Below are positions 20,582 through 61,549 of a DNA stretch of 64,000 nucleotides, one piece after another. Below the pieces are notes generated by a model, which had not been told where the DNA came from, searched no databases, and saw only the letters and a program-made list of their open reading frames with translations. This DNA is from Elainellaceae cyanobacterium (GTDB taxonomy: Bacteria; Cyanobacteriota; Cyanobacteriia; CAKZMO01): positions 669-64,668 of the forward strand of contig JBARXP010000099.1 in the NCBI GenBank assembly GCA_049647405.1, given 5' to 3'. The translations under genes and the position numbers were made by a program. Every line of letters starts with the position of its first letter. The stretch's first letter is position 1.

Positions 20582-20726
20582 GGCATCTTCCCAAAAACTT
20601 CCCACGAATTCACCACTATATCAAGTAAATTCAAAAAATGCAATTTACCCTCAGCAATTCCAGTAGTTCTCAGAATGAGAATTGCTGCAAAACCTGTACT
20701 ATTTTTTGGCGTTTGGAGATAATTGG

Positions 20727-20810
20727 TTTGAGATTGAGATTGAGATTGAGATTGAGATTGAGATTGAGATTGAGATTGAGATTGAGATTGAGATTGAGTT
20801 TGAGATCGAA
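20727..20810. repeat. hexanucleotide microsatellite (GATTGA)n, about 12 perfect units plus degenerate ends
   Basis: Directly visible as gagattgagattgag... from about 20727 to 20810. It generates spurious SQSQSQ and EIEIEI ORFs on both strands. Confidence 0.9.
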
Positions 20811-21315
20811 TTAAGCATGAAGATCTGTGGTGACGACTGCAAAACACACAGTTTTTGCTCCAACACGTTAATCTGTAGGAGCGTTAAGTCGATAGAATAG
20901 ATAAGAAGTTTCGGCGAGCTTGGCGAAGGGACTGATTCAATACTGCTCTGATGTAGTGTTCCCGATTAGTCGTAACCAGTGCGAATTTTAGTCAGGGTCA
21001 CGAGATCGACATGGAATCCACATAAACAAGCTTGTTGAGCAAGCAAAGGGGTTGTCTCAGGTACGCGGTTTAGTCTACATGCCCAGATACACTAGCTTCA
21101 TCAACTAATGCACAAGACCTGTGCTCACATTCTCCACTCGCGGGAGCCTTGCTCTAATGCTCCATGTAAATCTCGCCAAAACTTGTTGTGGGTATGAATT
21201 TCTTAAGCGTGAGCATGTGTAGTGAAAAACACTGCCATCTCTGGAACTTAATATTTTGAAACAGTGGCGACAGAAATGGATTTGGATCTGAGTTTGACTG
21301 ATGTTTTGAGTTGAA

Positions 21316-22644: not shown

Positions 22645-23261
22645 CCGTACGCCGAATCAGATTTCAGCCTGACGATTCATCACCCCTTAGACAAACAGGA
22701 GGAAGAGAATAAAAAACATCAACACTAGCGTATAGTCCAGACTTGAAACTGAGCCATGAAAGGTGTCAGCCCTTCGGCATCATGAAAAGTTAGTTTCTAA
22801 ACTTTATTTTCTAAACCCTGTTTTCTAAGCCTTGTTTTCTAAACCCTGTATAGATTGCACAGCAGGCAACACAGGATTTAAGAACTTTATATTGAACTGT
22901 GTCCACTTACTCAAGTGGGTATTAGCTCAAAGCTTACATTCCTGAGAAAAGCCATGATTGAGATGTGCAGTCAACCCAACGTTGTTGTGACTGACGTTGT
23001 AGTTCTAAGAAGGGTGCAATTCAGTTAAACCATTAAGCAGTCCGTTTTCATTTTCATGGGATGCCTGATGTTGATATGGCCTGTAAGTAGATGCGCGGCT
23101 AAACCCTAACGTCTGCTTCATGCGCGCAGTCGGCGGCATAGAGGCTAGGCAATAGTTTTTAAGAATGCCGAACTACGTATTTGTTTATGACACAACCAGA
23201 TGATGAGTAGGATGATGATGAGTAGGCTGCGGGTTTTGATGTCTTACATAACCAATGTCTT

Positions 23262-25430
23262 ATGGCACCAGAGTTTATCACTCCACTCGCTCAGGGTCGG
23301 CGAACCCTAGCTGCAATCGTTATTACCGATGGCGTGGGATTCAGTGCCCGTATGTCTACGGACGAAGAGCTGACCCTGGGCCTCATTCATCGTGATTTGC
23401 AGATGATGACGCAGATCTGTGAGCCCGAAGGAGGCCAGGTACTCAAGTCTACGGGCGATGGGCTATTGATGTGTTTTGCTAGTGCTGCCCAGGCGATGAG
23501 TTGCGCGATCGCCATTCAGCAGCAGTTTGCCGAACTCTCGGCTCATCGGCAGCCACAAGATGTGCTGATGCATCGCATCGGAGTGCATCTTGGTGATGTT
23601 TTCTTGAGCGAATCTGATGTCATGGGAAATGGTGTCAATATTGCGGCTCGACTCCAAACTCAGGCAGAACCCGGTGGCATCTGTCTCTCCCAAACCGTCT
23701 ACGACGTGGTCAAGTCGCAGCTATCGCTCAAGGCTCGATTTATGGGAGCGCTGCATCTAAAAAATATTCAGGAACCCGTTCCGGCTTACCACATGATGCC
23801 AGCGGGCGATCGCCCAGATGAACCTGGTTCTGAACAAAATACTGACCCGTCAGGCCAAGTCGATTCCTCAATTGAGCCAGCGACACAAGCTGTCCAACCC
23901 GCTGTCCAGCCAGCCGTCCAACCGTCCGAGTCAGCCAGCTCATCCGATTCAAGAGGGTTTTCCGTCACCCGCATGGATGAGAACGGGAGCCCCGCTCTCC
24001 CCGAGGTCAAAGCTTTTCTCCAGCAGGAAGTGATTTCTACCGGGGAGCTGATTCACGATCGCTACCGGATTCAGACCTCGCTTGGGCAAGGCGGTTTTGG
24101 TCGAACCTACCTCGCCAAAGACATTCATCGCTTTGACGATTTGTGCGTGCTAAAAGAATTTATGCCGCTCAACACCTCCGATTATGTGGTAGAAAAGGCA
24201 CGCACATTGTTTGAGCGAGAGGCGAAGGCGCTTTATCAGCTCAACCATCCGCAGATTCCGAAGTTTCTTGCCTGGTTTACCTATGCCAGTCGGCTGTTTA
24301 TCGTGCAGGAATATGTCAATGGGTCGTCCTATTCACGATTGCTGCAAACTCGATTGCAGAAGGGATGTACGTTTTCTGAGGCAGAAGTGCTGCAGTGGCT
24401 CTACGACTTGCTGATGGTACTCGACTATCTCCATAACCAGGGCATCGTTCATCGCGATATCTCAACCGACAATGTGATGCAGCCAGACAATTCGCCCAAA
24501 CCTGTACTGATCGACTTTGGTCTAGTCAAGCAAACGGTCTCAGACGTGTTGGCGCAATCTTCTAGTCAATCGTCTCAGAGTGGGGAAATGTCTAAGCGGT
24601 CGTTTGTCGGCAAGCTGGGCTATGCGCCGCCCGAACAAATCCGCATGGGGCAGTGTTTTCCATCGAGCGACTTATATGCTCTTGCCGTGACGGCATTAGT
24701 GCTACTGACAGGCCAACAGCCCAATCTGTTAATCAATCCTCATTCTTTAGAGTGGGACTGGCGATCGCACATCACAGTCAGCGATACCTTTGCCCAGTTA
24801 ATCACCCGCATGTTGGCCGAGCGACCGAGCGATCGCTATCCCACCGCCGCCGCCGCGCTGTGTGCCATCCATGATTCTCCTCTAATTCAGCAGATCACCC
24901 TACGCCCGGTCGAAACTCAAATTCAGTCTCAGGCTTGTGCAACAGAACAGGCAGCTCTCAGCCAAAATATTCAAGATATTCCCCCCGTTTCCGCAGCAAG
25001 TTTTCTGAATCCAGAGTTTTTAGAAACGTGCCGAACAGCATTAATCCAGTGCATTGGCCCAATGGCGAATTATCTCTTGGTCGATCTCCAGGGAAACCAT
25101 CCCAACGTTAGCCCCGAACGGTTTGTGCAGCTACTGGTGCAAGAGATTCCCAACACGCATCAGGCCGAGCAGTTTCAGACGGTCATGGAAGATACGTTGA
25201 GACTTGCTTCCCAACGTTCAACAGCCAAGACCAGCATAGATTCTGAGTTTATCAAGCGCTGTCAACGCGAGTTGGCTCAGTGCATCGGCCCCATGGCTAG
25301 CTTCATCCTCGATGATGTGATGGTGCAGATGAAGCCGACTACGCCCCAAGAGCTAATTCAGGCGATCGCCATCGAAATCCCTGATCCCAAAAAAGCAAAA
25401 GAATTTGAAGCCGCTATGCGATCGGTTTAG
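23262..25430 (+). CDS. multidomain signalling protein: class III adenylate/guanylate cyclase domain + Ser/Thr protein kinase domain + two C-terminal repeats of about 65 aa
   Basis: The CHD domain carries the metal Asp residues (ITDGVGFS, GDGLLMCF), K...D and the N/R pair (GNGVNIAARL). The kinase domain has GQGGFG, VLKE, HRDISTDN, DFG and APE motifs. The C-terminus holds two homologous modules (…CRTALIQCIGPMANYLL… and …CQRELAQCIGPMASFIL…). Confidence 0.8.
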   Translation: MAPEFITPLAQGRRTLAAIVITDGVGFSARMSTDEELTLGLIHRDLQMMTQICEPEGGQVLKSTGDGLLMCFASAAQAMSCAIAIQQQFAELSAHRQPQDVLMHRIGVHLGDVFLSESDVMGNGVNIAARLQTQAEPGGICLSQTVYDVVKSQLSLKARFMGALHLKNIQEPVPAYHMMPAGDRPDEPGSEQNTDPSGQVDSSIEPATQAVQPAVQPAVQPSESASSSDSRGFSVTRMDENGSPALPEVKAFLQQEVISTGELIHDRYRIQTSLGQGGFGRTYLAKDIHRFDDLCVLKEFMPLNTSDYVVEKARTLFEREAKALYQLNHPQIPKFLAWFTYASRLFIVQEYVNGSSYSRLLQTRLQKGCTFSEAEVLQWLYDLLMVLDYLHNQGIVHRDISTDNVMQPDNSPKPVLIDFGLVKQTVSDVLAQSSSQSSQSGEMSKRSFVGKLGYAPPEQIRMGQCFPSSDLYALAVTALVLLTGQQPNLLINPHSLEWDWRSHITVSDTFAQLITRMLAERPSDRYPTAAAALCAIHDSPLIQQITLRPVETQIQSQACATEQAALSQNIQDIPPVSAASFLNPEFLETCRTALIQCIGPMANYLLVDLQGNHPNVSPERFVQLLVQEIPNTHQAEQFQTVMEDTLRLASQRSTAKTSIDSEFIKRCQRELAQCIGPMASFILDDVMVQMKPTTPQELIQAIAIEIPDPKKAKEFEAAMRSV

Positions 25431-30986: not shown

Positions 30987-31153
30987 TTTCTGTTAGGAAA
31001 AGGGGCGATACGGGCTACGCCCAGGCAAGCCAACGCTCTTGCCTTGTGGGGAGGGCGATCGCCCATTTATAGAAAAGGGGCGATCGCCCTTCATCAAAAC
31101 TCCAGGACTTCACAGTGTTAGCATCAAGACCAATGAGCATTTAGGTCATCGTA

Positions 31154-36950: not shown

Positions 36951-38435
36951 GTGACCTGGGCAGATAATCCTCCACCTACAGTACGACTTGGTGAAGTCGC
37001 CGCAATCCATGTCGGTCTACGGATCTCTTCGATCGGGATAGTCATAGAAGAAGGCAGTGGCACTTCTTTCATAACTGGCCGCGATCTATACACCAACCGA
37101 CCGACAGCTGCATCGTTACGACAAGTTCAACTCACAGAAGATGTAGCCACAACGCGGTATCTTACTGTGGGCGACCTCGTTATTGCGACCACCTTCAAAC
37201 ACCCGCGTGTGCAGTCGGTCTCCGAAGAACTCGCTGGCGTCCTCCCTGCTAATACGGTTCTGGCCATCAGGCCGGATCATGCGATTATTGCGGTCGACTT
37301 CCTCGCTGACTATTTGTCGTCAGACACGTTTCTCCGGCACGCGCGCACGGTTTGCTCCACGCTTCATGACGCGATTCGACTGACGGTGACTGACCTAGCC
37401 AACGTTCCGGTTCCGTTATACCCAGTTGATCTACTCAAGGACTTCGATGTCATCCGCGACGAGGAGCAGCACCTTCGTACTCGGGCAGACGAACTGCATC
37501 GAGTCATCGTGTCATTCTTTAACTTTGGCACCGAAGCCGCACTGCGAGAAGCGGTAAACGATGTTCGGTTGCAGACCAACATAGTAGAGCAAAGCCTCCA
37601 GGCAGCGACCGATCCCGACTTTCAGATAAGGACATTCTATCCGTTCCCTATCGCCTATCCCTATCGTCTCACTGACCTCGATATTGAACCGACGAAGACT
37701 CTATATGAATTGCACCGCGTGTCAGAGGCCATCGCCGCGTACATAGCGTCACTATTGTTGGTGCTCCTAGAACCGCTTCCTACCACCATGCAGAAGTACG
37801 TCAAGAGGAGTTTTGGTGGCCACGGAGCAACCTTCGGCAACTGGTACAAGATCATTGTCCAGGGCACGGAATATCTGGACAGCGGGACTTCTGCGCTACA
37901 CAGATCTCTGGCTCACCTCGGGAAGACCGCTTTCTTGCGTCAGGTAAAAGAACTTCTTCAGTACCGCGACGACTTTCATCACCCCTCTGGGACGGGATCT
38001 CTGGTTGGTGCAGCGGCAGTGGCTCGTGAATCCGCTATTCGAAAAACGATGCGTTCAGTAATGTTGGAACTCGCGTTTCTCTGCGAACACCCGCTCTACC
38101 TGCCGATGGACTACGATGTTGTCCGCGCTACTGGCCTGTTTCGAACAGTGGCTTTGAAGTACACCGGTGACCATCCGGGAATGCGGAAGTTCGAGGTCGA
38201 CCTGCATCACGCGGTGACGAAAAATGACCTATGCACAGCAATTGGTAATGGGGACATGTGGCGCAGTCTCTATCCATACTTGTCTGTCGCGCACTGTCCA
38301 GTGTGCGGATCGCGAGAAACGTACTATGTGGACGAATGGCAGCCCGGAAAGGCGGCACGCATTCGGAGTTTCGAGCGTGGGCACGAGCAGATCTCCGACG
38401 AGATCGGTCACGAACTCTCGTTACGCCTCAGATGA
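36951..38435 (+). CDS. stand-alone protein: type I R-M HsdS-like target-recognition domain fused to an uncharacterised C-terminal domain of about 300 aa with a CxxC zinc ribbon
   Basis: The N-terminal 190 aa show the HsdS TRD pattern (LGEVAAI...GDLVIATTFK...VLPANTVLAIRP...TVTDLANVPVPLYPVDLLKDFDVIRDEEQHL...ELHRVI). The C-terminus carries RDDFHHP and HCPVCGS motifs. No hsdM or hsdR lies nearby. Confidence 0.6.
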   Translation: MTWADNPPPTVRLGEVAAIHVGLRISSIGIVIEEGSGTSFITGRDLYTNRPTAASLRQVQLTEDVATTRYLTVGDLVIATTFKHPRVQSVSEELAGVLPANTVLAIRPDHAIIAVDFLADYLSSDTFLRHARTVCSTLHDAIRLTVTDLANVPVPLYPVDLLKDFDVIRDEEQHLRTRADELHRVIVSFFNFGTEAALREAVNDVRLQTNIVEQSLQAATDPDFQIRTFYPFPIAYPYRLTDLDIEPTKTLYELHRVSEAIAAYIASLLLVLLEPLPTTMQKYVKRSFGGHGATFGNWYKIIVQGTEYLDSGTSALHRSLAHLGKTAFLRQVKELLQYRDDFHHPSGTGSLVGAAAVARESAIRKTMRSVMLELAFLCEHPLYLPMDYDVVRATGLFRTVALKYTGDHPGMRKFEVDLHHAVTKNDLCTAIGNGDMWRSLYPYLSVAHCPVCGSRETYYVDEWQPGKAARIRSFERGHEQISDEIGHELSLRLR

Positions 38436-49134: not shown

Positions 49135-51927
49135 CTACCGCTTAACGGCTTCTCGCACAATGCGAATTCCCTCCCAGGCTGGCATTTTGCCTTCTTTTCG
49201 TGCTTCTAACAGCGCAAAAAATGCATAGAGATTCATAACGCGATCGCGCTGTGTAATACAGTCTAAGCGGGTGCTGTTGACTCGATAGTTCAACAGCCAG
49301 GTCATAAATCGAGGCAAGTAGGGGATTCCTTGCTGTCTATTGTCAGCGAGATTAGCGTGAGCATCGGCTAGGGCTTGCCAAAACTCGGCAGCCAGCAATA
49401 GATAACTGCGAACAGCTTGAACGTCTCGCTGATGAGCGCCACGGGTGAGCAGGGCTTTTCGATCGAAGCTACGAGTATCTCGTCTTGCCATTGTTCGTTC
49501 GCAGGTGCGAATTTTGCTTCGCACATCGTCATCAATTACATCCGCAGTCATCGAGCTACTGCGGGCGATCGCCAAGGCTCGGCTGAGATCTAGGGCAAAG
49601 ACTTGCTGTAGAACACTGGGCAGTTCCAACGACGGATCAAACACAGGATGAAACCCCGTGTCAGACTGCAAGTCAAGGGAAAGTTGAAACTCGGAATCTT
49701 GGGTGAGATGCTGCACATGGGGGCGATCTCGCTCCACATAATCCCGCAGAAGATTGCTAAATTGTCCCTGCCAATCTTGCCATACGCCAGGTTTTAGCCC
49801 AGCCACTCGCCTATCTTGCAGATCCGCACACCAGCACCCGGTTCCTGGCTCTTTGCTGGGGTTTTCTTTGACTTCTACCAACCGAGGCAAGCGATATTTA
49901 AACCGCAGTTCTGGTTTGGCCTGGGTTTGAGTCAGCCAATCGCAAAACGCCTGAGCATCTTCAGCCCGAACCCCCGTCACGGGAAGTTGAGCGTTTTGGG
50001 GTAAAAAGCGATCGCTCGTCCAGTGGTCAGGGTAAGCGGCATGGGGCCACTGGTCTAAGAACAACTGATACTCGGCTTGAGTAATCTGGTGCTGGTCAAT
50101 TTCAGTCTTATTGTTGAGCCGCAGGAGCTGACTCAACCGATTAGACAGCTTCACCTCAGCCGCTAACTTAAAGATGGCTGGGTCAGAAGAGAGCAGCCCT
50201 TCATCAATGGCTTGTCGGAGATGACGGGCAACGTCAGGTTCAATCGGCACTCCATCTTTGTCTAAGGTATAGGCCAAACTGAGCGACGCAACCGTGGAGT
50301 GTTCTAGCGCGATTTCAACAATAGGAGTCGCATCTTTCTTTTGAGCGGCATAGAGATAGAGAGTATCAAACCACCAATCATCCGTTACCCTCTGCAATAG
50401 CTCCTGCTCTTTGCCCAACACCTGAATCTGCACCGCTGCTAGGTAGTGTTGAAAACTCTCATGAGCAAACTCGTAAACTCCCTCCGCTTTTTTCATGAGG
50501 AGCCCATGAGCACTATCGGTCTGCTGCAAAAACTGCCCTAGAGCAATGTCATGCCCCAAGATTTCAGCCACGGTAGAGCGCAGCGACAGATTATCCTCTG
50601 CTAACTGATAGTCTTGGGTGTTTTGTTCCATCATGGCCAAAGCCAGGGTTTGCAGAAGCGTTCGCGTTTTGTGGGCGATCGCCTCGTCGTAGATATCGCG
50701 ATCTTTCTGCCGTTTCTCAATCAGTACTTCGTAGATCACCGCATAGAGCCGCACCCGGTTTTCGGGCAGCACCGCTCGGTAGTTGTGAACCGTCGTCATC
50801 ATAGTCAACAGCAGCGGATTTAACGCCATTGCAGCCAGGGGTGGATTGTCTTTGATGCGACCAAATAAATCAGTCGCCTTGGCTTGGGCAATCTGTCTAG
50901 CCTGTCGTTTTGACATTCGCGTGGCGGCTGAACCCGTTCGGGGACGGCGCATTAGCTCATTTTGCAGATACCAGTTATGGATAAACCGCTCAATTTGCTT
51001 GAGGGTAAAGGGCTCAACCTTGAGCACTCGTGGAATAGACTTAATCTCAGCCGATTGATAGCCCAATGGCCGAGAGGTGACGAGAAAATAGCTGTCGGAA
51101 TAAGACTTAATCTGCTGCTCAATCCACTGGCTCACGTCTCGACGAGCATCGGCATCAGCAATTTCATCAAATCCATCGAGCATGACAAGGCACTGGCCTT
51201 TCTGTAAGCGACGTTCAAACCAGTTTGGCGGCGGATTGCATCGCCTCACAATCTCTTGACGCTCGATGAGACGGGGCAAGGCAGCGGGCGATCGCCCCAA
51301 CTCTCGCAGCGAAATAAAAACTGGAACCAGCTTAGGAGCACGGCGGCGCTGTTTGCGGTGGGCGTTTTGAACGTAAGTGACAATGAGATGCTTGAGCAGG
51401 GTTGTCTTTCCCGACCCTGGAGGGGCAAGCAAAGCCTGGTGACGCAGGCGAGATTCTTCGACCCCATCCACCACAAAATCCCAGATATTGAAGTCTTCGG
51501 CACTATAGTCTTGCTGAATCAGACCTGCGGAGATTTCCTCCGATTCAGGAGAGGTAATCCCCAACGGAATGAACATCTGCTCAAGCTCCAAAACTTGATT
51601 ACCGATGTCTAACCCGTGGGTGCGATAGTCGCTGAAATGGTACAGCAGAGTCTTGTAATAGTTTCGCTGAAATGGAGAGGTGACCGACACCCAAGAAATC
51701 TCAATCCACCGAACTAAGGTATCTGAGATTGATTCTCCCAATTTTTCAATAACAGTCTTGCTAATATTCGAGAAAAGCGAGGTGATTGAGCCGATAATGG
51801 CAAACAAAATGGCAGCATAAAGTCCACTACCATCTTCAAGGTATCCAAGGAGACGATTGATGGCGATCGCAAAGAAAAAGCCAGCAAGCCCATATTTCTG
51901 AAAAAGTTCGAGAACCTTTTCTCCCAT
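49135..51927 (-). CDS. NACHT-family STAND NTPase with N-terminal TM segment and C-terminal SUMF1/FGE-sulfatase-like domain
   Basis: Walker A APPGSGKTTLLKHL and Walker B LVMLDGFDEIAD of the NACHT module. About 2 TM helices at the N-terminus. The C-terminus carries ...ITQAEYQLFLDQWP...PVTGVRAEDAQAFCDWL (SUMF1/FGE signature). Confidence 0.8.
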   Translation of the reverse strand: MGEKVLELFQKYGLAGFFFAIAINRLLGYLEDGSGLYAAILFAIIGSITSLFSNISKTVIEKLGESISDTLVRWIEISWVSVTSPFQRNYYKTLLYHFSDYRTHGLDIGNQVLELEQMFIPLGITSPESEEISAGLIQQDYSAEDFNIWDFVVDGVEESRLRHQALLAPPGSGKTTLLKHLIVTYVQNAHRKQRRRAPKLVPVFISLRELGRSPAALPRLIERQEIVRRCNPPPNWFERRLQKGQCLVMLDGFDEIADADARRDVSQWIEQQIKSYSDSYFLVTSRPLGYQSAEIKSIPRVLKVEPFTLKQIERFIHNWYLQNELMRRPRTGSAATRMSKRQARQIAQAKATDLFGRIKDNPPLAAMALNPLLLTMMTTVHNYRAVLPENRVRLYAVIYEVLIEKRQKDRDIYDEAIAHKTRTLLQTLALAMMEQNTQDYQLAEDNLSLRSTVAEILGHDIALGQFLQQTDSAHGLLMKKAEGVYEFAHESFQHYLAAVQIQVLGKEQELLQRVTDDWWFDTLYLYAAQKKDATPIVEIALEHSTVASLSLAYTLDKDGVPIEPDVARHLRQAIDEGLLSSDPAIFKLAAEVKLSNRLSQLLRLNNKTEIDQHQITQAEYQLFLDQWPHAAYPDHWTSDRFLPQNAQLPVTGVRAEDAQAFCDWLTQTQAKPELRFKYRLPRLVEVKENPSKEPGTGCWCADLQDRRVAGLKPGVWQDWQGQFSNLLRDYVERDRPHVQHLTQDSEFQLSLDLQSDTGFHPVFDPSLELPSVLQQVFALDLSRALAIARSSSMTADVIDDDVRSKIRTCERTMARRDTRSFDRKALLTRGAHQRDVQAVRSYLLLAAEFWQALADAHANLADNRQQGIPYLPRFMTWLLNYRVNSTRLDCITQRDRVMNLYAFFALLEARKEGKMPAWEGIRIVREAVKR

Positions 51928-52150
51928 GTGTCTCCGTCCCCTTGTAGATGTCCCTGCGGCCTGATCGTGCTATCGCTTACCAGTGTATGAGAAGAAGTCT
52001 TGAATTTCGTGAGCTTTAGAGAGAATTTAGCGGGGCTTCAAGATTCGGGCGCTGGCTATGAGCAGGACAGAAGCGATACGGGCTACACCCAGGCAAACCA
52101 ACGTCCCCATGAGAGTTTTGTAGAAATCATTGCTGAAGTCCATTGCCAAA

Positions 52151-55100
52151 CTAAAGCCCATTGCCAATCAGGATAAAAGGAGCCCAATAATAAGGATGGG
52201 CTAAATCGCTGCCTTGGGAGAGCGATCGCCCTATTTGCAGGTTAGTGCTTTCAATTTCGACACCTCTTGCTCCCTCTAGGATCGTTGCGTTATTTGTGAT
52301 GAGAGCAATCTGGGCACGTTGGAGAGCTTCGGCTTTTGTATAACCATTATTGAGTGCGGCATAGAATGCATCCATCAACACCTGAGTTCCGCCATCGCTC
52401 ACCTGCCACAGCGAGGCGATCGCCGCATCAGCTCCAGCCAACTGCATCAAATAGCCAAATCCTAAAATCTCTTCTCCATTGCCGAGGGGCACATCGCCAA
52501 CCGCCGTTTCACAGGCACTTAACACTACTAACTCTACATTGGGAAACGTCCAATCTTTAATGTCCGTAAGGGTTGCACGACTACCATCACCAAACAAAAT
52601 GAACGAGTTTTCCGGTGGCCCTGGATTAAAGGTGGCGTGGGTCGCTAGATGAATCACGTTGAAGTCGTTCATGTCGTAGATGATATCAACGTTGAAGTCG
52701 GCATTCGTTCGAGTTTCGGTACCGGGAATAAGCTGGACTAAGTTTTCAACTTCTCGGCCAGCAAACGTCAACCCGACGAATGAAAGAGTGCGATCGCCAA
52801 TTTGAACTTGATACTGACCTTCAGTAAACGCAGCGGCTAAGACGCTCAACTCTCCGCGAAATGGCTGACTATCCAGGTCGTCTAAACTCGCGGCTGTAAT
52901 ATTGTTGATCTGAAATTGTTCAACCAACCATTGATTGCCATCGTGAAGAGCCGCCAGGGGAATGTAGCGCAGCTGACGATCAGGAGCATAGATGATGACC
53001 TCTGCATCGGCTTGGGCTAAATCATCAATAATTGGACGAATCAGCCAATCATAGAGTTGCTGAGCTTGCGGAATCGCAGTTTGGCTCGGAGTCCGTAGGG
53101 CAGAACGAAAGTTGGCGATCGCCTGATTGAGGGTCAGTCTATCAATGGCAAATGTACGCCGAATAGGAGGAGCATTGGCCGTGACCAAAATCAGCTCGAT
53201 GCGATCGTCTAACACTAATGGGTATAAAATCACCGCATTTTGGCTCAGAGCTTGCAGATTATTTTGTAAGTCGTTCAGCTCCTCTAGCTCTAGGTTGGCG
53301 GCTCCTGTGATTTGGCGCAGTTGGGCAATCAGCATTTGAATTTCGTCAGACTCAAAAAAGTTGCGAAAGGTCTGTCGAGCATCTTGCTGAAGCTGACGCA
53401 GTTGTCGCACCCGTGCAACTTGGTCAGACGTGCGATCGAGGCGATCAATTTGCTCTAGACCCCGTAGTTCTCGCCCCAGGGCGACCACCCTATTCGACCG
53501 CTCCTGAAACTGGTCAAGGAGACGCTGTTCTTCATCTCGCAGGGCAATACCAGACTCGGTTTCCGCACTACGCTCTACACCTTGAAGATAGTCGTCTAGC
53601 TCCTGCACCTTCAGCAAATCAAGCACTCGCTGGGCTTCTAAGATTCGATCTTCTTGCAGTAGCAAATCGGCAAGCTGTCGGTAGGTAGCGGCAACGGTAT
53701 CTGTGTAGGTTTGCTGAACGTCAAACGGAAGAGTTCTCAGTTCTTGGCGAATCGATTCGGTTAAGTTCACGGCCTGTTTGTAAAATACGATCGCCAGTTC
53801 GATTTCACTCTGCTGAGCAAACATATCGCCCAATCGACTCAAAATGAATCGCTCTCCGTCTCGATTTCCAGACTCTTGAAAGAGGCCAAGCGCAAGTTGA
53901 AAAGCTTCTAACGCCTGTTCAGGTTGAGAAAGAGCACTGTAGCTCACACCCAGATTTGTCAGTGCAGAAGCCTCTCCAATGGGATTGCCAATGTCGCGAT
54001 AGATATCGAGAGATTGTTGTGATGCGCTCACAGCTTCTGAAAAATTGCCAATATCAATAGATAGCGCGCCAATGCCGTTTAGGGTGGCAGCTTCTCCTGC
54101 GCGATCGCCAATGTCTCGACGTAGCTCTAGCGATCGCTCAAAAGCAGTGATTGCTTCACTTGCGTTGCCCTGAATGTTGTGGATGAGGGCAATGTTGTAA
54201 AGGGTGCCCCCCATACCGGGGCGATCGCCAATGTCTTGTCGTATGGTGAGAGCTTGCTGATAGTAGTCAAGCGCTTGATCGAACTGTCCGAGGGCGTAAT
54301 GCAATCCCCCTATGCTATTGAGAATACCTGCTTCCTCTGAGCGGGCACCAAGGGCTTGAAAAATTTGAAGCGACTGCTGGAAGAAACTTAGAGATTCAAC
54401 GTAATTTCCTATGCTGAAATTGACAGTGGCAAGCCTTGACAAAGAATAAGCCTCTCCGCGACGATCGCCAATATCCTGTTGAATTTCGAGCGCTTCTTGA
54501 CAATACTCAAGTGCTGTCGCGTAGTTTCCTAAGTTCCAATGAGCTGATCCCAAACTTACCAAACTCGATGCCTCATCAATCAGGTTACCAATCGATTGAT
54601 GAACATCTAAAGCAGCTTCTAATCTTTCGAGAGCGGCTTGATAGTTACCTCGATTAATCTCAATTAGACCTAAATTAATCAAAATACGCCCAAGCTCTGC
54701 TTGATTTCCAAGATCTTGAGCAACAGCTAATGCGTTTCGAAGAAATTCTTGTGCTTGCGTATAATCGCCAATATTGATGTAGGTAGTTCCAATACTACTG
54801 AGAATACGAGCTTCGACGAGGCGATCGTTAGTTTCTTGACTCATTGAGAGTGCTTGAAGGTTATATCGAATCGACTCTGAGTAATCACCGTAGAGTGTAT
54901 AGATGATTCCAATATTATTAAGAATTCGATCTTTCAGTGCAGATAAATAAGCTGAATCAGATTGAACAAGATTTAGAGCTTGCTGATGAAAGTCTAATGC
55001 TGTTTCATATTGTCCTTGTCTTCGGTAAACGACACCGATGTCGTCAAGAATCTTAGCTGTAATAGAGAGGTTTTCTATATTCAGGCTTAATTCTAAAGCC

Positions 55101-55573
55101 TGCTGATATTGCTCCAAAGCTAAGTTAAAATCACTCAAATTATAAGCAATTATCCCAGACTCATTAAGGCTACGGCTAAGGAGATCAAGATCACCAAAGT
55201 TTTCACTAATGGCGATCGCTCTATCAATATAGTTCTCTGCTTTATCAAAGCAACCAAGAATTCGAGCAGTTACAGCAGCACTATGCAAGAGATGACCGAT
55301 GGCTAATGAGCTATCGTCCATACTATATAACAGTGCTTCTTCATAGACAGAAAGTGCCTCCTGGAACTGATTAGATTGAAATAAATCATTTCCTTCTCTG
55401 AATAGTCTAAGAGTTGCAGTTGTTTCTTCCTGTTCACTCGTTTGTGATATAAGGAACCCGTGCTCATTAAGCTTCATAGCTAGCACAGCGGAATCCGAAC
55501 ATAATAGAATTGATAAGGCAGAGCAAAAGACTGTAGCTATTCTTTTATGAAATATTAGTTCTGAAATAAACAT
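52151..55573 (-). CDS. TPR-repeat protein with C-terminal CHAT (caspase-like) protease domain, signal peptide
   Basis: About 20 TPR units; the C-terminus carries a His...Cys dyad (IHLATHA ... VLSACETA). Hydrophobic N-terminal leader. Confidence 0.85.
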   Translation of the reverse strand: MFISELIFHKRIATVFCSALSILLCSDSAVLAMKLNEHGFLISQTSEQEETTATLRLFREGNDLFQSNQFQEALSVYEEALLYSMDDSSLAIGHLLHSAAVTARILGCFDKAENYIDRAIAISENFGDLDLLSRSLNESGIIAYNLSDFNLALEQYQQALELSLNIENLSITAKILDDIGVVYRRQGQYETALDFHQQALNLVQSDSAYLSALKDRILNNIGIIYTLYGDYSESIRYNLQALSMSQETNDRLVEARILSSIGTTYINIGDYTQAQEFLRNALAVAQDLGNQAELGRILINLGLIEINRGNYQAALERLEAALDVHQSIGNLIDEASSLVSLGSAHWNLGNYATALEYCQEALEIQQDIGDRRGEAYSLSRLATVNFSIGNYVESLSFFQQSLQIFQALGARSEEAGILNSIGGLHYALGQFDQALDYYQQALTIRQDIGDRPGMGGTLYNIALIHNIQGNASEAITAFERSLELRRDIGDRAGEAATLNGIGALSIDIGNFSEAVSASQQSLDIYRDIGNPIGEASALTNLGVSYSALSQPEQALEAFQLALGLFQESGNRDGERFILSRLGDMFAQQSEIELAIVFYKQAVNLTESIRQELRTLPFDVQQTYTDTVAATYRQLADLLLQEDRILEAQRVLDLLKVQELDDYLQGVERSAETESGIALRDEEQRLLDQFQERSNRVVALGRELRGLEQIDRLDRTSDQVARVRQLRQLQQDARQTFRNFFESDEIQMLIAQLRQITGAANLELEELNDLQNNLQALSQNAVILYPLVLDDRIELILVTANAPPIRRTFAIDRLTLNQAIANFRSALRTPSQTAIPQAQQLYDWLIRPIIDDLAQADAEVIIYAPDRQLRYIPLAALHDGNQWLVEQFQINNITAASLDDLDSQPFRGELSVLAAAFTEGQYQVQIGDRTLSFVGLTFAGREVENLVQLIPGTETRTNADFNVDIIYDMNDFNVIHLATHATFNPGPPENSFILFGDGSRATLTDIKDWTFPNVELVVLSACETAVGDVPLGNGEEILGFGYLMQLAGADAAIASLWQVSDGGTQVLMDAFYAALNNGYTKAEALQRAQIALITNNATILEGARGVEIESTNLQIGRSLSQGSDLAHPYYWAPFILIGNGL

Positions 55574-55719
55574 GTCTAAAGTAAACTATTTAAGCAAGTA
55601 AATTGGCCACATAACTTTATCTTTAGCTGTACTAATTTATATTGGTGTTGAGTTAATTCATGAATTAATTATAGCCAGCTCAGACTATTCTACTAAAAAA
55701 TAGTTGTCTCTTTACGAAA

Positions 55720-57033
55720 TCAACGTGTTCCTCTTCCTTCTGTTCTACCAGGTAGTCCTATGTCAGGTGGGCTATAACCAGACCTACCACCATTACGTAT
55801 TGGTAGATTATCTTCATCTTCACTCGACATAATTTCCAATGGCTCGAACTCCGAATCATTAGGAGTGTTTTCTTCTTCATAAAATATGGTTCCAGTTCCA
55901 TAAGAATTGAAACTAGAAAGCCTAGACCAGTAACCAATGAAGCTCTCTTCTCGGATTGATTCAAGACCTACAGATATCAGCAGTGCTTGAAGATCTTCTA
56001 TAGCGATAAAGCTACTAGAAGATCTCTGACTCAACTTGAAAAAGGCAGCAAGAGAATCATACCAAATTCCCTCTTCAGCATACGTGTAAGGCTGATCTAT
56101 GATTGAAGTCTCTATTTCTTGCAAGTCATATGGCAATGGCTCTAATCTTTGAATCCAGCCATTTGTGTAGTGACTTGAACTCCAATCTTCCACTCCAGCA
56201 ACCCAAAATATCCAGTAATACGTTTTGCCGATTTCAAGAGCAGGTAAATCCTCTATCCCTTCTAAGTCAACACCTAGAACTCCAGTCTCTTCTGGATAAG
56301 GTTGGGTTAACTTATAAAGGAATCTACCTTGCTCATCCCAAAGTCCAAATTGAATCGTTAGGTCGCCAAATAGTTCTACGTTGATTATCTCTTCTGTAAG
56401 AGAAACAAAAATTGTAGGTTTAGGTGAGAGCGTATAACCATGATTTGTCTCTGGTGGAACCAATGCCGTCACTAATGGCAAATCCTCTTGTGGTGGATCA
56501 ACTTGTGTCCCGTCGTCTTCGCTGTCACTTGCAATGCCACCCGACTCTCCTGAACCCGGCATAAGAATATCTGGTGGCTGAAACGTAGGTAAACTAAAAG
56601 AAACATGGCGGTCTGGCAGCGTAGATGAAGCCTCTGCAAGAGTAGAAGAAGGCGAGGCAGATAACGACTGTCCCTCAGTCTGTCTAAGAGTGAGCGCCTG
56701 CTGAAAAAATTCCAAAGCCTGCTCATGCTGATTCAGACTTAGATAAATATTGCCAATTTGGTTGAGAGTATCGGCTTGTCCCTGGCGATCGCCCCTTTCC
56801 TCATAAACTCTCAACGCTGCCTCAAACTTTTCTAGCGCTACTTCAAGCTGTTCGGCTTGCCTCAGCTCCATACCTTCTTGAAACAGGCGATCGCCCTCTG
56901 CCTCTTGCGCTTCATCTGGAATAGCTTGGGCGATCGCTTCATTTGCCATCGCCATCGCAACTCCCGATACAAGAGCAGGAATAAGCAGCAGTGAACCGAC
57001 ACTCATCAGAAGCCGACACATTGATGGGTTCAT
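55720..57033 (-). CDS. secreted TPR-repeat protein with uncharacterised C-terminal domain (possibly DUF928-like)
   Basis: Signal-peptide-like N-terminus (LLMSVGSLLLIPALVSGVAMA), three TPRs, a Ser/Asp-rich linker and a roughly 200-aa C-terminal domain. Start set at the MNPSMCRLL ATG. Confidence 0.55.
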   Translation of the reverse strand: MNPSMCRLLMSVGSLLLIPALVSGVAMAMANEAIAQAIPDEAQEAEGDRLFQEGMELRQAEQLEVALEKFEAALRVYEERGDRQGQADTLNQIGNIYLSLNQHEQALEFFQQALTLRQTEGQSLSASPSSTLAEASSTLPDRHVSFSLPTFQPPDILMPGSGESGGIASDSEDDGTQVDPPQEDLPLVTALVPPETNHGYTLSPKPTIFVSLTEEIINVELFGDLTIQFGLWDEQGRFLYKLTQPYPEETGVLGVDLEGIEDLPALEIGKTYYWIFWVAGVEDWSSSHYTNGWIQRLEPLPYDLQEIETSIIDQPYTYAEEGIWYDSLAAFFKLSQRSSSSFIAIEDLQALLISVGLESIREESFIGYWSRLSSFNSYGTGTIFYEEENTPNDSEFEPLEIMSSEDEDNLPIRNGGRSGYSPPDIGLPGRTEGRGTR

Positions 57034-57229
57034 GAAGATGACCATCCTGAATTTAGGAATGCACGTTCTGTATATCACTTAGTCTCAACTCATTCTACCT
57101 ACGCAGTCTCAAACAAGTTTTTGATGAGCAGATTGCCTAAGAGCTTTATATTCAATGTATGTGGCGATCGCGCCTCTCTCAGTAAGGCGGCTTATCTTCC
57201 AAACAAAAACTAAAGAATCTCTCAGGCCA

Positions 57230-57838
57230 TCAAAAATTGCAGCCTGACGGCAAAGGCTCTTGTTGAGCCACATCCACCGCAAACCCCTCAGGCAAATCTA
57301 CAGCACTGAAGCCCTCAGCCACCGTTCCCTTTTGAGCCTGAGTTCCGTAACCGCTCCGATTCATGTGCGATCGCACAATCACCCCATCAGTCGGTTGAAT
57401 CGCAACAGGCCCACCCGATCGCGTAAACGGCTGCTCATCGACATGGCTATGAAGCAGCACCCGCCGATACAACAACTCTCCCTCCTCGCTCAGCACTTCC
57501 CACCAGTCTGCATATTGCTCACACCCCGTATCCGGACTCTGCACCGTCACGCTAAAGGTGAAATTGCCTGACTCTTCACTGACCGAGACATCTATCACCT
57601 CAGCAAAGTCACCTGAACTAGCCTGGGCAGTTGCTATAGAAGAAGGCTCTTGCCGTTCGATAGCTTCTGACTCCAATGGTCGAGGAGAAGAGGCGTCAGA
57701 GGTCGGCGGGTCACTCGTTGCGCATCCTCCCAAAAAGGTAACGACGACAATAGAAAGCACCGTCTTAGAAATGGGTTGCAGTCGCTGAGGCAAAGCTTGA
57801 TAGTGGCTCATTGAATTTTGTGATTTTGACTTGCTCAA
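57230..57838 (-). CDS. hypothetical lipoprotein
   Basis: Lipobox-like FLGGC after a hydrophobic segment. No recognisable domain otherwise. Confidence 0.45.
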   Translation of the reverse strand: MSKSKSQNSMSHYQALPQRLQPISKTVLSIVVVTFLGGCATSDPPTSDASSPRPLESEAIERQEPSSIATAQASSGDFAEVIDVSVSEESGNFTFSVTVQSPDTGCEQYADWWEVLSEEGELLYRRVLLHSHVDEQPFTRSGGPVAIQPTDGVIVRSHMNRSGYGTQAQKGTVAEGFSAVDLPEGFAVDVAQQEPLPSGCNF

Positions 57839-61285: not shown

Positions 61286-61458
61286 TGTCTAGCTAAACCT
61301 GTCACTGAAAGTAGAAAGTTGATGATATGAAAGAAAGATTAAGTTTCGCTCTTTCATTCTACATAGATGGTCTCCGTTCGTTGGAGGATCGGTCACAACC
61401 TACACATACTCACGTTTATTCTGATCCACCTACCTAATGTTCATACTTAACGTTTATT

Positions 61459-61549
61459 AGGACTTACGCAGTTCGTTGAAAGGGTGGGCGCGTCGCGCCC
61501 ACCCTTTCAACGAGTTTAGTCAGGCTTAGACGAGTTGTGCGTAAGTCCT
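61459..61549. repeat. nested perfect palindrome (12-bp outer inverted repeats enclosing a 19-bp-stem GC-rich hairpin), MITE-like or regulatory
   Basis: The outer inverted repeat is aggacttacgca (61459-61470) / tgcgtaagtcct (61538-61549). The inner hairpin is cgttgaaagggtgggcgcg-tc-cgcgcccaccctttcaacg (61474-61513). Confidence 0.6.

What the first reader, a model, noticed from the sequence alone, without database searches (positions are those of the whole stretch)
49135..57078. Same-strand cluster: secreted TPR protein, TPR-CHAT caspase-like protease, membrane NACHT-SUMF1 STAND NTPase
Three consecutive minus-strand genes encode:
- a signal-peptide TPR protein with an unknown C-terminal domain;
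- a 1140-aa TPR-CHAT protease with an intact His/Cys dyad;
- a 930-aa NACHT NTPase with N-terminal TM helices and a C-terminal FGE/SUMF1-like domain.

CHAT and STAND NTPase proteins are both hallmarks of prokaryotic programmed-cell-death and anti-phage signalling. Juxtaposing a secreted or periplasmic caspase-like protease with a membrane STAND sensor is a plausible but uncharacterised module. A 31-bp dispersed repeat lies in the spacer between the CHAT and NACHT genes. The N-terminal half of the CHAT gene is AT-rich.
Basis: partly seen in the sequence, partly recalled or inferred. Interest (0 to 1): 0.58.

Follow-up and report, generated by a model that had tools for sequence, protein, structure and literature searches.

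The report
Exported DUF928–CHAT pair plus unrelated NACHT
The three neighbouring genes are real, but only the first two (an exported DUF928 protein and an exported caspase-like CHAT protease) travel together in other cyanobacteria, as a variant of a widespread, undescribed DUF928/CHASE2-sensor/CHAT module, while the NACHT gene is an independent neighbour.

Summary
All three minus-strand ORFs and their domains are confirmed. They are TPR-DUF928 (55720-57033), TPR-CHAT with an invariant His979/Cys1021 dyad (52151-55573), and 2TM-NACHT-FGE/CLec (49135-51927). The three-gene module is not supported. Four NACHT orthologues (39-68% identity) sit among unrelated housekeeping genes, and none of 84 DUF928 loci holds a NACHT relative. 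The DUF928-CHAT pair is conserved in the two closest relatives with context.

Family-wide, DUF928 genes are tied to CHASE2 sensors. Among 58 cyanobacterial loci with at least 3 kb on both sides:
- 50 have a CHASE2 gene adjacent on the same strand;
- 49 carry a CHAT domain, either fused to CHASE2 (cytoplasmic) or as a separate exported TPR-CHAT.

DUF928 proteins are signal-peptide Ig-like beta-sandwiches. They carry a Pro/Gly-rich linear motif ending ...GG[AS/GT]R. The window protein carries a copy as its exact C-terminus (…GRGTR-COOH).

My best reading has two parts. The first is an extracytoplasmic protease/adaptor pair, a CHASE2-less variant of this module. The second is an unrelated stand-alone STAND sensor of the known cyanobacterial NACHT-CLec kind. 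The proposed mechanism, TPR docking on the Arg-terminated tail followed by CHAT cleavage, is inferred and not shown.

The parts
55720..57033 (-). TPR-DUF928 gene, 437 aa. An alternative GTG start lies at 57078. The protein is exported.
   Evidence: ORF. The deposited protein P0001 is 100% identical over 437 aa. Pfam finds TPR plus DUF928 at E 4.7e-29.
56923..57033 (-). Signal-peptide-like N-terminus of the DUF928 protein (residues 1-37, ...AIAQA).
   Evidence: Hydrophobic segment. Of 92 DUF928 homologues, 79 have one.
56671..56907 (-). Two TPR_12-type repeats at the N-terminus of the mature DUF928 protein.
   Evidence: Pfam TPR_12/TPR_1. They are 35-41% identical to individual repeats of the neighbouring CHAT protein.
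56527..56583 (-). Degenerate N-terminal copy of the DUF928 linear motif (FQPPDILMPGSGESGGIAS). The terminal Arg is lost.
   Evidence: Alignments A1 and A8 and motif census.
55945..56484 (-). DUF928 domain: an Ig/FN3-like beta-sandwich followed by helices.
55723..55776 (-). C-terminal copy of the motif (YSPPDIGLPGRTEGRGTR). It ends exactly at the protein's C-terminal Arg.
   Evidence: All 12 C-terminal copies found end at the Arg.
55574..55719 (-). 146-bp AT-rich spacer between the DUF928 and CHAT genes.
   Evidence: Sequence. No terminator-like site was found. The orthologous spacer is 3 bp in L001.
52151..55573 (-). TPR-CHAT gene (1140 aa): signal-like N-terminus (residues 1-32), TPR array (~45-610), a linker of mostly charged residues, and CHAT (836-1138).
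   Evidence: Orthologues in L001 and L004 lie directly downstream of TPR-DUF928.
52160..53068 (-). CHAT caspase-like domain. The catalytic His979 codon is at 52637-52639 and the Cys1021 codon at 52511-52513.
   Evidence: Pfam match covers 3-289 of 289 positions. H and C are invariant in 34 of 34. Coordinates.
54400..56500 (.). Low-GC segment (GC 0.35-0.40, GC3 0.25-0.34). It spans the DUF928 domain, the spacer and the first ~400 codons of CHAT.
51928..52150 (-). 223-bp spacer between CHAT and NACHT. It contains the 31-nt dispersed repeat at 52073-52103.
   Evidence: There is no Rfam match.
49135..51927 (-). Stand-alone 2TM-NACHT-CLec(FGE-like) STAND NTPase gene (930 aa). It is not part of the DUF928/CHAT module.
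   Evidence: Pfam. Walker A GSGKTT at residues 171-176 and Walker B LVMLDGFDE at 247-255. TM helices. CLec fold. Orthologue contexts.

Best explanation
The interval holds two unrelated units.

**Unit 1 (55720-57033 and 52151-55573).** This is a conserved pair of exported proteins.
- The first is a TPR-DUF928 protein. It is an Ig-like beta-sandwich whose tail ends in the family's Pro/Gly-rich, Arg-terminated motif (...PPDIGLPGRTEGRGTR-COOH).
- The second is a long TPR-CHAT clan-CD cysteine protease with an intact His/Cys dyad.
- The pair is a rare CHASE2-less variant of a widespread cyanobacterial extracytoplasmic module. In that module a periplasmic DUF928 protein is encoded next to a CHASE2 membrane sensor. 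The sensor's cytoplasmic output is most often a CHAT protease, otherwise a cyclase, histidine kinase, GGDEF-EAL or Ser/Thr kinase. A separate exported TPR-CHAT is frequently present too.

Most likely mechanism, with what is shown kept apart from what is inferred:
- Shown: gene linkage, export signals, the motif, and the intact dyad.
- Inferred: DUF928 is the periplasmic adaptor or regulator. The protease's TPR array docks on its Arg-terminated tail. The CHAT domain then processes DUF928, in canonical members after the Arg of ...GG[AS/GT]R|G. This changes what the partner sensor sees, by analogy with periplasmic regulator/protease/sensor circuits such as ExoR-ExoS or CpxP-DegP-CpxA.
- In this window no CHASE2 gene lies within 64 kb. 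The pair therefore either works with a receptor encoded elsewhere or acts on its own.

**Unit 2 (49135-51927).** This is a single-gene STAND NTPase of the large cyanobacterial NACHT-CLec/FGS family.
- It has an N-terminal two-helix membrane hairpin in the effector position and a degenerate CLec sensor.
- It probably acts as a self-contained conflict or immune sensor.
- Its adjacency to unit 1 is incidental.
For: **Pair conservation**
- L001 has TPR-DUF928 followed 3 bp later by a 1128-aa TPR-CHAT.
- L004 has the same order.
- phmmer against the CHAT domain gives 2e-206 and 2e-191.

**Family-wide linkage**
- Of 58 DUF928 loci with at least 3 kb on both sides, 50 have a CHASE2 gene adjacent on the same strand. 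CHASE2 occurs somewhere in 54, and 49 have CHAT, fused or separate.
- Of 35 non-redundant CHASE2 neighbours, all are CHASE2. Twenty are CHAT-CHASE2 fusions, 5 cyclases, 3 HK-REC, 2 GGDEF-EAL and 2 Pkinase.
- An independent gene call in L097 reads TPR-CHAT, DUF928, CHASE2-HK-REC on one strand.

**Compartment**
- DUF928 homologues and separate TPR-CHAT proteins have N-terminal signal or anchor segments.
- One neighbour is a TPS-CHAT fusion.
- In CHAT-CHASE2 fusions the CHAT domain precedes the first TM helix.

**Motif**
- It is present in the N-terminal half of 179 of 244 DUF928 proteins, in 1-4 tandem copies.
- It ends GGASR, GGGTR or GAASR and is followed by G in 141 of 226 copies.
- All 12 copies in C-terminal tails stop exactly at the Arg.

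**Dyad**
- H979 and C1021 are invariant in 34 of 34.

**NACHT independence**
- Four orthologue contexts lack CHAT and DUF928.
- No NACHT relative occurs in the 84 DUF928 loci.
- GC3 is 0.53, against 0.34 and 0.41 for the pair.
- The family has more than 956 members with variable N-termini: EAD1, TIR, SEFIR.
- NACHT/STAND plus CLec/FGS is described in PMC7159879 and PMC10907252.
Against: **No experimental or transcript data.**
- Co-transcription of all three genes cannot be excluded. They share a strand, the spacers are 146 and 223 bp, and no terminator-like site was found in the spacers.

**The cleavage-after-Arg step is inference.**
- The only characterised TPR-CHAT proteases (Craspases) cut at non-conserved L|D, M|K and A|S sites (PMC11106740).
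- About half of the DUF928 loci have only a cytoplasmic, fused CHAT in cis. That CHAT could not reach a periplasmic DUF928.
- The motif may therefore be a CHASE2-binding element rather than a cleavage site.

**Weak points specific to this window.**
- The window protein's N-terminal motif copy has lost its Arg.
- No CHASE2 gene is present in the window, L001 or L004.

**Limits of the evidence base.**
- Only two relatives of the TPR variant have usable context.
- Loci in the census are phylogenetically non-independent, with many Nostoc.
- Signal peptides were judged by hydropathy only.
- The DUF928 model rests on 7 sequences (mean pLDDT 66).
Confidence: 0.6

Rival explanations
1. The three genes form one functional operon. 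In this view a membrane-anchored NACHT-CLec sensor controls, or is controlled by, the exported CHAT protease and its DUF928 partner, in a programmed-death or anti-phage module specific to this lineage.
For: - The genes share a strand and have short spacers (146 and 223 bp).
- No terminator-like hairpin lies between them.
- All three have lower GC3 than the flanking housekeeping genes.
- STAND NTPases and caspase-like proteases do co-occur in described conflict systems (PMC7159879). One family member, P0095, fuses NACHT, FGE, GUN4 and CHAT.
Against: - The arrangement is not conserved. Four NACHT orthologues have unrelated neighbours.
- The closest DUF928-CHAT locus has no NACHT.
- None of the 84 DUF928 loci has a NACHT relative.
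- The NACHT body is cytoplasmic while the CHAT and DUF928 proteins carry export signals.
- No shared adaptor (EAD-type) domain was found.
- PADLOC finds no known system.
- A dispersed repeat sits in the spacer.
Confidence: 0.1
2. The DUF928-CHAT pair is an exported toxin/immunity or competition system. Under this model the secreted CHAT protease attacks neighbouring cells or their envelopes, and DUF928 is the cognate periplasmic immunity or inhibitor protein.
For: - Some DUF928 loci encode TPS-domain (two-partner secretion) proteins: a TPS-CHAT fusion in L021 and a separate TPS-domain protein beside a TPR-CHAT in L039. This is an architecture typical of contact-dependent effectors.
- A small exported protein is encoded directly next to the protease.
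- The pair has atypical composition, which suggests horizontal acquisition.
Against: - DUF928 tracks CHASE2 sensors more tightly than exported CHAT genes (50 of 58 loci against 24 of 58). It does so whatever the sensor's output domain, which points to signalling rather than immunity.
- DUF928 carries a conserved linear motif rather than the rapid diversification usual for immunity proteins.
- No TpsB/ShlB transporter gene was identified in the window.
Confidence: 0.12
3. DUF928 is a ligand-binding accessory (co-receptor) for CHASE2, with no proteolytic step. In this view the Arg-terminated motif is the CHASE2-docking element, and the exported TPR-CHAT neighbours act on other substrates. The window pair would then be two independently acting envelope proteins.
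For: - The motif is present in loci whose only cis CHAT is cytoplasmic.
- The DUF928 fold's best structural match is a carbohydrate-binding module. The other matches are adhesin and Ig-like binding domains.
- Periplasmic binding proteins that dock on sensors are well established (own knowledge: LuxP-LuxQ, TorT-TorS).
Against: - In the window, L001 and L004, DUF928 is linked to TPR-CHAT with no CHASE2 at all. The DUF928-CHAT link therefore persists without the sensor.
- Exported TPR-CHAT genes are usually immediately adjacent to DUF928.
- Every C-terminal motif copy ends exactly at Arg. This fits a requirement for a free Arg carboxylate, as a protease product would have.
Confidence: 0.18

Closest known systems
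Type III-E CRISPR 'Craspase': TPR-CHAT protease Csx29 with its neighbour-encoded substrate Csx30
   Same: Both have the TPR-array plus CHAT architecture with a His/Cys dyad. In both, a dedicated partner protein is encoded next door and is the presumed substrate. Specificity is thought to come from docking rather than from the residues at the cut site (PMC11106740).
   Different: - Craspase is cytoplasmic, bound to gRAMP/Cas7-11 and activated by target RNA.
- Here both proteins carry export signals.
- No CRISPR array or gRAMP-sized Cas gene is in the window.
- The partner is a DUF928 beta-sandwich, not Csx30.
- No sequence-level hit to solved Csx29 was found.
CHASE2 transmembrane receptors, including the caspase-CHASE2 fusion noted in cyanobacteria
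   Same: The canonical relatives of this locus pair DUF928 with a CHASE2 receptor, and 20 of 35 of those receptors carry an N-terminal CHAT. A caspase-CHASE2 protein in Trichodesmium was listed in 2010 (PMC2853523). One Nostoc punctiforme CHASE2+DUF928 cluster was mentioned in 2017 (PMC5587647).
   Different: - The window has no CHASE2 gene.
- I found no paper describing the general DUF928-CHASE2-CHAT linkage, the motif, or any ligand for CHASE2.
Periplasmic regulator / protease / sensor switches (ExoR-ExoS/ChvI; CpxP-DegP-CpxA). This comparison comes from my own knowledge and was not tested here.
   Same: The logic is shared: a small periplasmic protein is encoded with, or acts on, a membrane sensor, and a periplasmic protease removes it to switch signalling. 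ExoR is itself a TPR/Sel1-like repeat protein.
   Different: There is no homology. The protease here is a clan-CD CHAT rather than a serine protease. Proteolysis of DUF928 has not been demonstrated.
Bacterial NACHT / Avs-type STAND defence proteins and cyanobacterial STAND-CLec(FGS) 'antigen sensors'
   Same: The 930-aa protein has the tripartite layout: an N-terminal effector-position module (a 2TM hairpin), a NACHT with intact Walker A and B motifs, and a C-terminal CLec/FGE-fold sensor. The architecture class is described in PMC7159879 and PMC10907252.
   Different: - No PADLOC model matches.
- The CLec domain is interrupted by a ~200-aa helical, partly low-complexity insertion.
- No DGR reverse transcriptase or template repeat is visible in the window.
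- No anti-phage activity has been tested.
Arg/Lys-specific clan-CD proteases (cyanobacterial orthocaspases, metacaspases, separase). Their specificity is recalled from my own knowledge.
   Same: They share the caspase-hemoglobinase fold and the His/Cys dyad. A basic P1 preference would fit a motif that ends in an invariant Arg.
   Different: The window protein matches Pfam CHAT, not Peptidase_C14. P1 specificity of this CHAT clade is unknown, and the characterised CHAT proteases are not Arg-specific.

Membership tests
DUF928 (Pfam PF06051) | Significant match to the family profile over most of its length | tested here: met
   E 4.7e-29, 101.9 bits against a cut-off of 26, profile positions 13-182 of 184. 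A profile of the family recovers it at 3e-58.
DUF928 (Pfam PF06051) | Exported protein with a signal peptide and the family's Pro/Gly-rich motif ending in Arg | tested here: met
   The signal-like N-terminus is present. The N-terminal motif copy is degenerate, but a C-terminal copy ends ...GRGTR-COOH.
DUF928/CHASE2/CHAT gene module (defined here) | A CHASE2-domain gene adjacent to the DUF928 gene | tested here: not met
   There is no CHASE2 hit in the 64-kb window, L001 or L004, even with unfiltered HMM search. It is present in 50 of 58 canonical loci.
DUF928/CHASE2/CHAT gene module (defined here) | A CHAT protease gene adjacent to DUF928 | tested here: met
   TPR-CHAT lies 146 bp downstream on the same strand. 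The same arrangement is seen in L001 and L004.
CHAT domain proteases (Pfam PF12770, clan CD) | Full-length domain match with conserved catalytic His and Cys | tested here: met
   Profile positions 3-289 of 289, E 4.3e-60. H979 and C1021 are invariant in 34 of 34. Catalytic activity itself is not testable here.
Craspase (type III-E Csx29) | Association with gRAMP/Cas7-11, a CRISPR array and Csx30/Csx31/RpoE | tested here: not met
   No CRISPR-like repeat array was found. The large ORFs of the window are rpoB/C1/C2 and other housekeeping genes. PADLOC gives no Cas hit. The protein also has an export signal.
NACHT STAND NTPases (Pfam PF05729) | NACHT profile match with Walker A (GxxGxGKT) and Walker B (hhhhDGhDE) | tested here: met
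   E 2.8e-13, 50.5 bits against a cut-off of 26.7. GSGKTT at 171-176 and LVMLDGFDE at 247-255.
Known anti-phage STAND systems (bNACHT/Avs as modelled in PADLOC) | Match to a defence-system model, or demonstrated protection | tested here: not met
   No PADLOC family at E <= 1e-3. Protection is not testable with these tools.
FGE-sulfatase / C-type-lectin (CLec, 'FGS') fold | Profile and structural similarity to FGE/EgtB/PvdO/TvpA domains | tested here: met
FGE-sulfatase / C-type-lectin (CLec, 'FGS') fold | Catalytic residues of formylglycine-generating or sulfoxide-synthase enzymes | not tested
   Only the N-terminal part and the last strand of the domain are retained, so enzymatic activity seems unlikely. 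Residues were not mapped.
DGR-diversified STAND-CLec targets | Nearby reverse transcriptase and a template/variable repeat pair at the CLec C-terminus | tested here: not met
   No repeat pairs with 49135-49600, apart from a HIP1-type short match. The C-terminal strand ...AWEGIRIVRE is conserved among orthologues. This covers only the 64-kb window.

The most novel reading that the evidence does not exclude
DUF928 proteins (more than 5,000 family representatives at E <= 1e-10) are the missing periplasmic partners of CHASE2 receptors. They carry one or more Arg-terminated Pro/Gly-rich peptides. Exported caspase-like TPR-CHAT proteases bind these through their TPR arrays and cut them after the Arg, producing or removing a free ...GG[ST]R-COOH signal that CHASE2 reads. 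This would make a widespread cyanobacterial protease-gated extracytoplasmic signalling pathway whose commonest cytoplasmic output is a second caspase-like protease. The window's TPR-DUF928/TPR-CHAT pair, whose tail is 'pre-cleaved' (it ends in GTR-COOH), would be a receptor-free derivative of it.
Probability: 0.2. Interest if true: 0.8.

Novelty: new variant of a known kind. Interest (0 to 1): 0.52.

Why it matters
CHASE2 was defined about two decades ago as a common extracellular sensor domain. In the literature I could search, its signals are still listed as unknown. The many CHAT proteases of multicellular cyanobacteria are likewise almost all uncharacterised.

A near-obligate, exported partner (DUF928) with a conserved Arg-terminated tail, encoded beside both, gives concrete experiments:
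- binding and cleavage assays;
- mass spectrometry of native termini;
- knockouts in Nostoc or Synechocystis (sll1891).

These could identify what CHASE2 receptors read and what periplasmic caspase-like proteases cut.

The result also has a practical lesson for genome scans. Same-strand adjacency of two 'death/immunity-flavoured' genes (CHAT and NACHT) was not evidence of a joint system here.

Tried and rejected
**Searches and scans that gave little**
A four-sequence alignment worked.
- The third homology search, with a 49-sequence DUF928 alignment, returned only 5 proteins. Candidate selection was swamped by TPR and poly-Pro words. The DUF928 structure therefore had to be predicted from 7 sequences.
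- The metagenome scan chose patterns in the TPR part and returned only TPR proteins, so it added no TPR-DUF928 loci.
- A PDB sequence search with the CHAT half found only TPR proteins and no solved CHAT relative.
- NCBIfam and PADLOC gave nothing specific.
- Rfam gave nothing in the window or in the CHAT-NACHT spacer.
- The promoter/terminator scan was uninformative: 3 promoter-like sites against 10.7 expected, and no site in the spacers.

**Ideas considered and rejected**
- The 31-nt repeat as a larger mobile element or RNA gene. Similarity does not extend beyond about 33 nt, and only 2 copies exist in the window.
- A divergent CHASE2 hidden in the window or in the no-Pfam 691-aa protein of L001. 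Rejected.
- The 202-aa ORF upstream (57230-57838) as a module member. It has no homologue in any locus and no family hit.
- The DUF928 TPRs as a recent copy of the CHAT's own repeats. Only generic TPR_12-level similarity was found, 35-41%.

Full report
**1. Source and observation**

The window is almost the whole of a 64,948-bp contig of an Elainellaceae cyanobacterium MAG. The sequence is full of the cyanobacterial HIP1 octamer GCGATCGC. It also carries core chromosomal genes: rpoB, rpoC1, rpoC2, hisD, ctaD and mutS2.

The three minus-strand ORFs exist as described.

| ORF (minus strand) | Length | Pfam result |
|---|---|---|
| 49135-51927 | 930 aa | NACHT 169-319 (E 2.8e-13); partial FGE-sulfatase 609-687 (E 3.7e-7) |
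| 52151-55573 | 1140 aa | eight TPR_12 stretches; full-length CHAT 836-1138 (E 4.3e-60) |
| 55720-57033 | 437 aa | two TPRs; DUF928 (E 4.7e-29) |

Further checks:

- **CHAT dyad.** His979 and Cys1021 are invariant in 34 of 34 aligned CHAT domains.
- **Export signals.** Both the DUF928 and CHAT proteins start with signal-peptide-like segments.
- **NACHT N-terminus.** It has two hydrophobic helices that are conserved across its subfamily.
- **31-nt repeat.** It has exactly two copies in the window, against 0 expected. Similarity does not extend further.
- **Low-GC stretch.** It runs from the DUF928 domain through the spacer into the first ~400 codons of CHAT. GC3 there is 0.25-0.34. Housekeeping neighbours have GC3 0.61-0.63 and NACHT has 0.53.

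**2. Is it a three-gene module? No.**

Evidence from the NACHT side:

- The protein belongs to a family of more than 956 cyanobacterial relatives. Their N-terminal modules vary (EAD1, TIR, SEFIR) and GUN4 is a further accessory domain.
- Four full-length orthologues (68, 65, 42 and 39% identity) sit among unrelated genes. These include OTCase, a Na/H exchanger, pterin-binding, Mur ligase, SMC, RecG, GAPDH and an M48 peptidase. None has a CHAT or DUF928 gene within the sequence held.

Evidence from the DUF928 side:

- The closest relative with context (L001) has TPR-DUF928 followed 3 bp later by a 1128-aa TPR-CHAT. Convergent unrelated genes come next.
- L004 (Symploca) has the same pair.
- In 84 DUF928 loci, phmmer with the NACHT core, N-terminus or C-terminus hit nothing but the window itself.

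Two further points argue against a joint system. Codon composition separates the NACHT gene from the pair. Predicted compartments also differ: the pair is periplasmic and the NACHT body is cytoplasmic.

**3. What the DUF928-CHAT pair belongs to**

A genome scan with a DUF928 alignment returned 80 loci out of 233 confirmed relatives. Nearly all are from cyanobacteria of several orders.

I called ORFs and searched them with seeds, then checked representatives with Pfam.

Among 58 loci with at least 3 kb on both sides:

| Feature | Loci |
|---|---|
| CHASE2 gene adjacent on the same strand | 50 |
| CHASE2 anywhere in the locus | 54 |
| Adjacent CHASE2 protein is an N-terminal CHAT + CHASE2 fusion | 29 |
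| Separate CHAT gene | 24 |
| CHAT in either form | 49 |
| Neither CHASE2 nor CHAT | 3 |

Of 35 non-redundant CHASE2 neighbours, all match CHASE2. Their second domain divides as follows:

- 20 carry CHAT. The consensus of the fused domain keeps FAGHS...NSCDG.
- 5 carry a nucleotide cyclase.
- 3 carry HisKA-HATPase-REC.
- 2 carry GGDEF-EAL.
- 2 carry a protein kinase.

An independent public gene call shows TPR-CHAT, DUF928, CHASE2-HK-REC and REC-HK on one strand (L097).

The separate CHAT proteins almost all have an N-terminal signal or anchor segment. One is fused to a TPS two-partner-secretion domain. In the CHAT-CHASE2 fusions, CHAT lies before the first TM helix and is therefore cytoplasmic.

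DUF928 thus tracks the periplasmic CHASE2 domain whatever the output domain is. Caspase-like CHAT domains appear on both sides of the membrane.

The window, L001 and L004 have no CHASE2, even with an unfiltered HMM search. Instead, both their DUF928 and CHAT proteins carry TPRs. Only six representatives of this TPR-DUF928 form turned up among 1.84 billion cluster representatives. The DUF928 family as a whole has 6,761 representatives at E <= 1e-3.

**4. Anatomy of DUF928**

- **Signal.** Of 92 homologues, 79 have a signal-like N-terminus.
- **Linear motif.** The signal is followed by F-x-P-P...G-x-P..R.G-G-[AG]-[ST]-R.
  - The motif is usually followed by G-x-C.
  - It occurs in 1-4 tandem copies. 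L029 has four 21-aa copies.
  - At least one copy is present in the N-terminal half of 179 of 244 proteins.
- **C-terminal copies.** A subset has a second motif copy at the extreme C-terminus. This subset includes plain, pentapeptide-repeat-fused and all TPR-fused forms. All 12 such copies end exactly at the Arg.
- **Window protein.** The N-terminal copy has lost its Arg (FQPPDILMPGSGESGGIAS). The C-terminal copy is intact (YSPPDIGLPGRTEGRGTR-COOH).

**5. Mechanism**

The following points are shown:

- gene linkage;
- export signals;
- the intact dyad;
- the motif and its exact Arg termination.

The following points are inferred:

- DUF928 is a periplasmic adaptor or regulator of CHASE2 sensors.
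- Exported TPR-CHAT proteases dock on its Pro/Gly-rich tail through their TPR arrays. TPR domains classically hold C-terminal peptides (own knowledge).
- The protease then cuts after the Arg. C-terminal copies would resemble the cleaved product.

Points against this inference:

- Characterised TPR-CHAT proteases (Craspases) cut at L|D, M|K or A|S, not after Arg (PMC11106740).
- About half of the loci have only a cytoplasmic CHAT in cis, so the motif could equally be a CHASE2-docking element.

I put the two-unit interpretation at roughly 0.85 and the functional pairing of DUF928 with CHAT at about 0.8. I put the specific dock-and-cut-after-Arg step at about 0.3. The overall statement rates 0.6.

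**6. The NACHT gene**

Walker A and B motifs are intact. The C-terminal 370 residues model confidently (pLDDT 84).

- A ~200-aa helical, partly low-complexity insertion interrupts the fold.

STAND NTPases with C-terminal CLec/FGS domains are a described class in multicellular cyanobacteria (PMC7159879, PMC10907252). No DGR repeat pair is visible in the window, and no PADLOC model matches. The gene is a new member of a known kind.

**7. Comparison with the literature and novelty**

- Full-text searches for DUF928 with CHAT, CHASE2 with 'CHAT domain', and PF06051 gave nothing.
- One paper mentions a single Nostoc punctiforme cluster with a CHASE2 sensor and a DUF928 gene. It also notes acid-stress responsiveness of Synechocystis sll1891 (PMC5587647).
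- A 2010 survey lists a caspase-CHASE2 fusion (PMC2853523).

Within the library searched, the general DUF928/CHASE2/CHAT linkage and the Arg-terminated motif appear undescribed. The components and the logic (periplasmic accessory protein, protease, membrane sensor) are familiar. I therefore rate the pair as a new variant of a known kind, and the three-gene 'module' as not real.

**8. Limits**

- There are no transcript or biochemical data.
- Signal peptides were judged by hydropathy.
- Only two relatives of the TPR variant have context, and one (L004) has an in-frame stop upstream of its CHAT start.
- The locus census is phylogenetically uneven.
- Background rates of CHAT genes per genome were not measured.

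Noticed in passing
window 57230-57838 (-): A 202-aa ORF lies directly upstream of the DUF928 gene on the same strand. It has one hydrophobic helix (residues 23-41). It has no Pfam or NCBIfam hit and no relative in any fetched locus. A terminator-like hairpin lies at its 3' end (57258-57241). It may not be a real gene.
   Followed up: partly
window 20716-20827: A perfect tandem array of the hexanucleotide TTGAGA (about 17 units) lies in an intergenic region near hisD. Further short tandem arrays lie at 3967-4026 (12-nt unit) and 22794-22849 (14-nt unit).
   Followed up: no
window 31005-31035 and 52073-52103: Two same-orientation copies of a 31-nt element (GCGATACGGGCTACRCCCAGGCAARCCAACG) both lie in intergenic spacers. 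Each contains a small GGGC/GCCC hairpin. Its distribution outside the window was not examined.
   Followed up: partly
window 61458-61528: A 35-nt near-perfect inverted repeat (80% complementary, 1-nt gap) lies between mutS2 and the next gene. It is a possible bidirectional terminator or a palindromic element.
   Followed up: no
window 23262-25430 (+): A 722-aa protein combines an N-terminal adenylate/guanylate cyclase domain with a Ser/Thr protein kinase domain. This is an unusual signalling fusion.
   Followed up: no
window 36951-38435 (+): A 494-aa ORF has no Pfam family at E <= 1e-5.
   Followed up: no
L001 453-2528: A 691-aa protein with no Pfam hit lies directly upstream of the closest TPR-DUF928/TPR-CHAT pair. 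It has no counterpart in the window.
   Followed up: partly
L004 2024-2287: In the Symploca relative, a hydrophobic signal-like segment lies in frame upstream of the TPR-CHAT start, separated from it by a TAA stop. This points to a pseudogenised or mis-assembled N-terminus.
   Followed up: partly
P0137, P0138, P0144, P0154; P0148, P0198 (protein representatives): Some DUF928 proteins have other architectures. One group has two tandem DUF928 domains, each preceded by its own Arg-terminated motif. Another group is fused to N-terminal pentapeptide repeats.
   Followed up: partly
L019 7828-9099; L041 7109-9052: Two of the three DUF928 loci that lack both CHASE2 and CHAT have another envelope protease next door: HtrA-like Trypsin_2-PDZ in one and Peptidase_M48-TPR in the other. 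This may be chance.
   Followed up: no
L035 (Actinomycetota MAG) and L065 (Tatlockia MAG): DUF928 loci are attributed to non-cyanobacterial MAGs. The L065 locus has the same CHAT-CHASE2 / DUF928 / TPR-CHAT layout as Aliterella, so mis-binning is likely.
   Followed up: no
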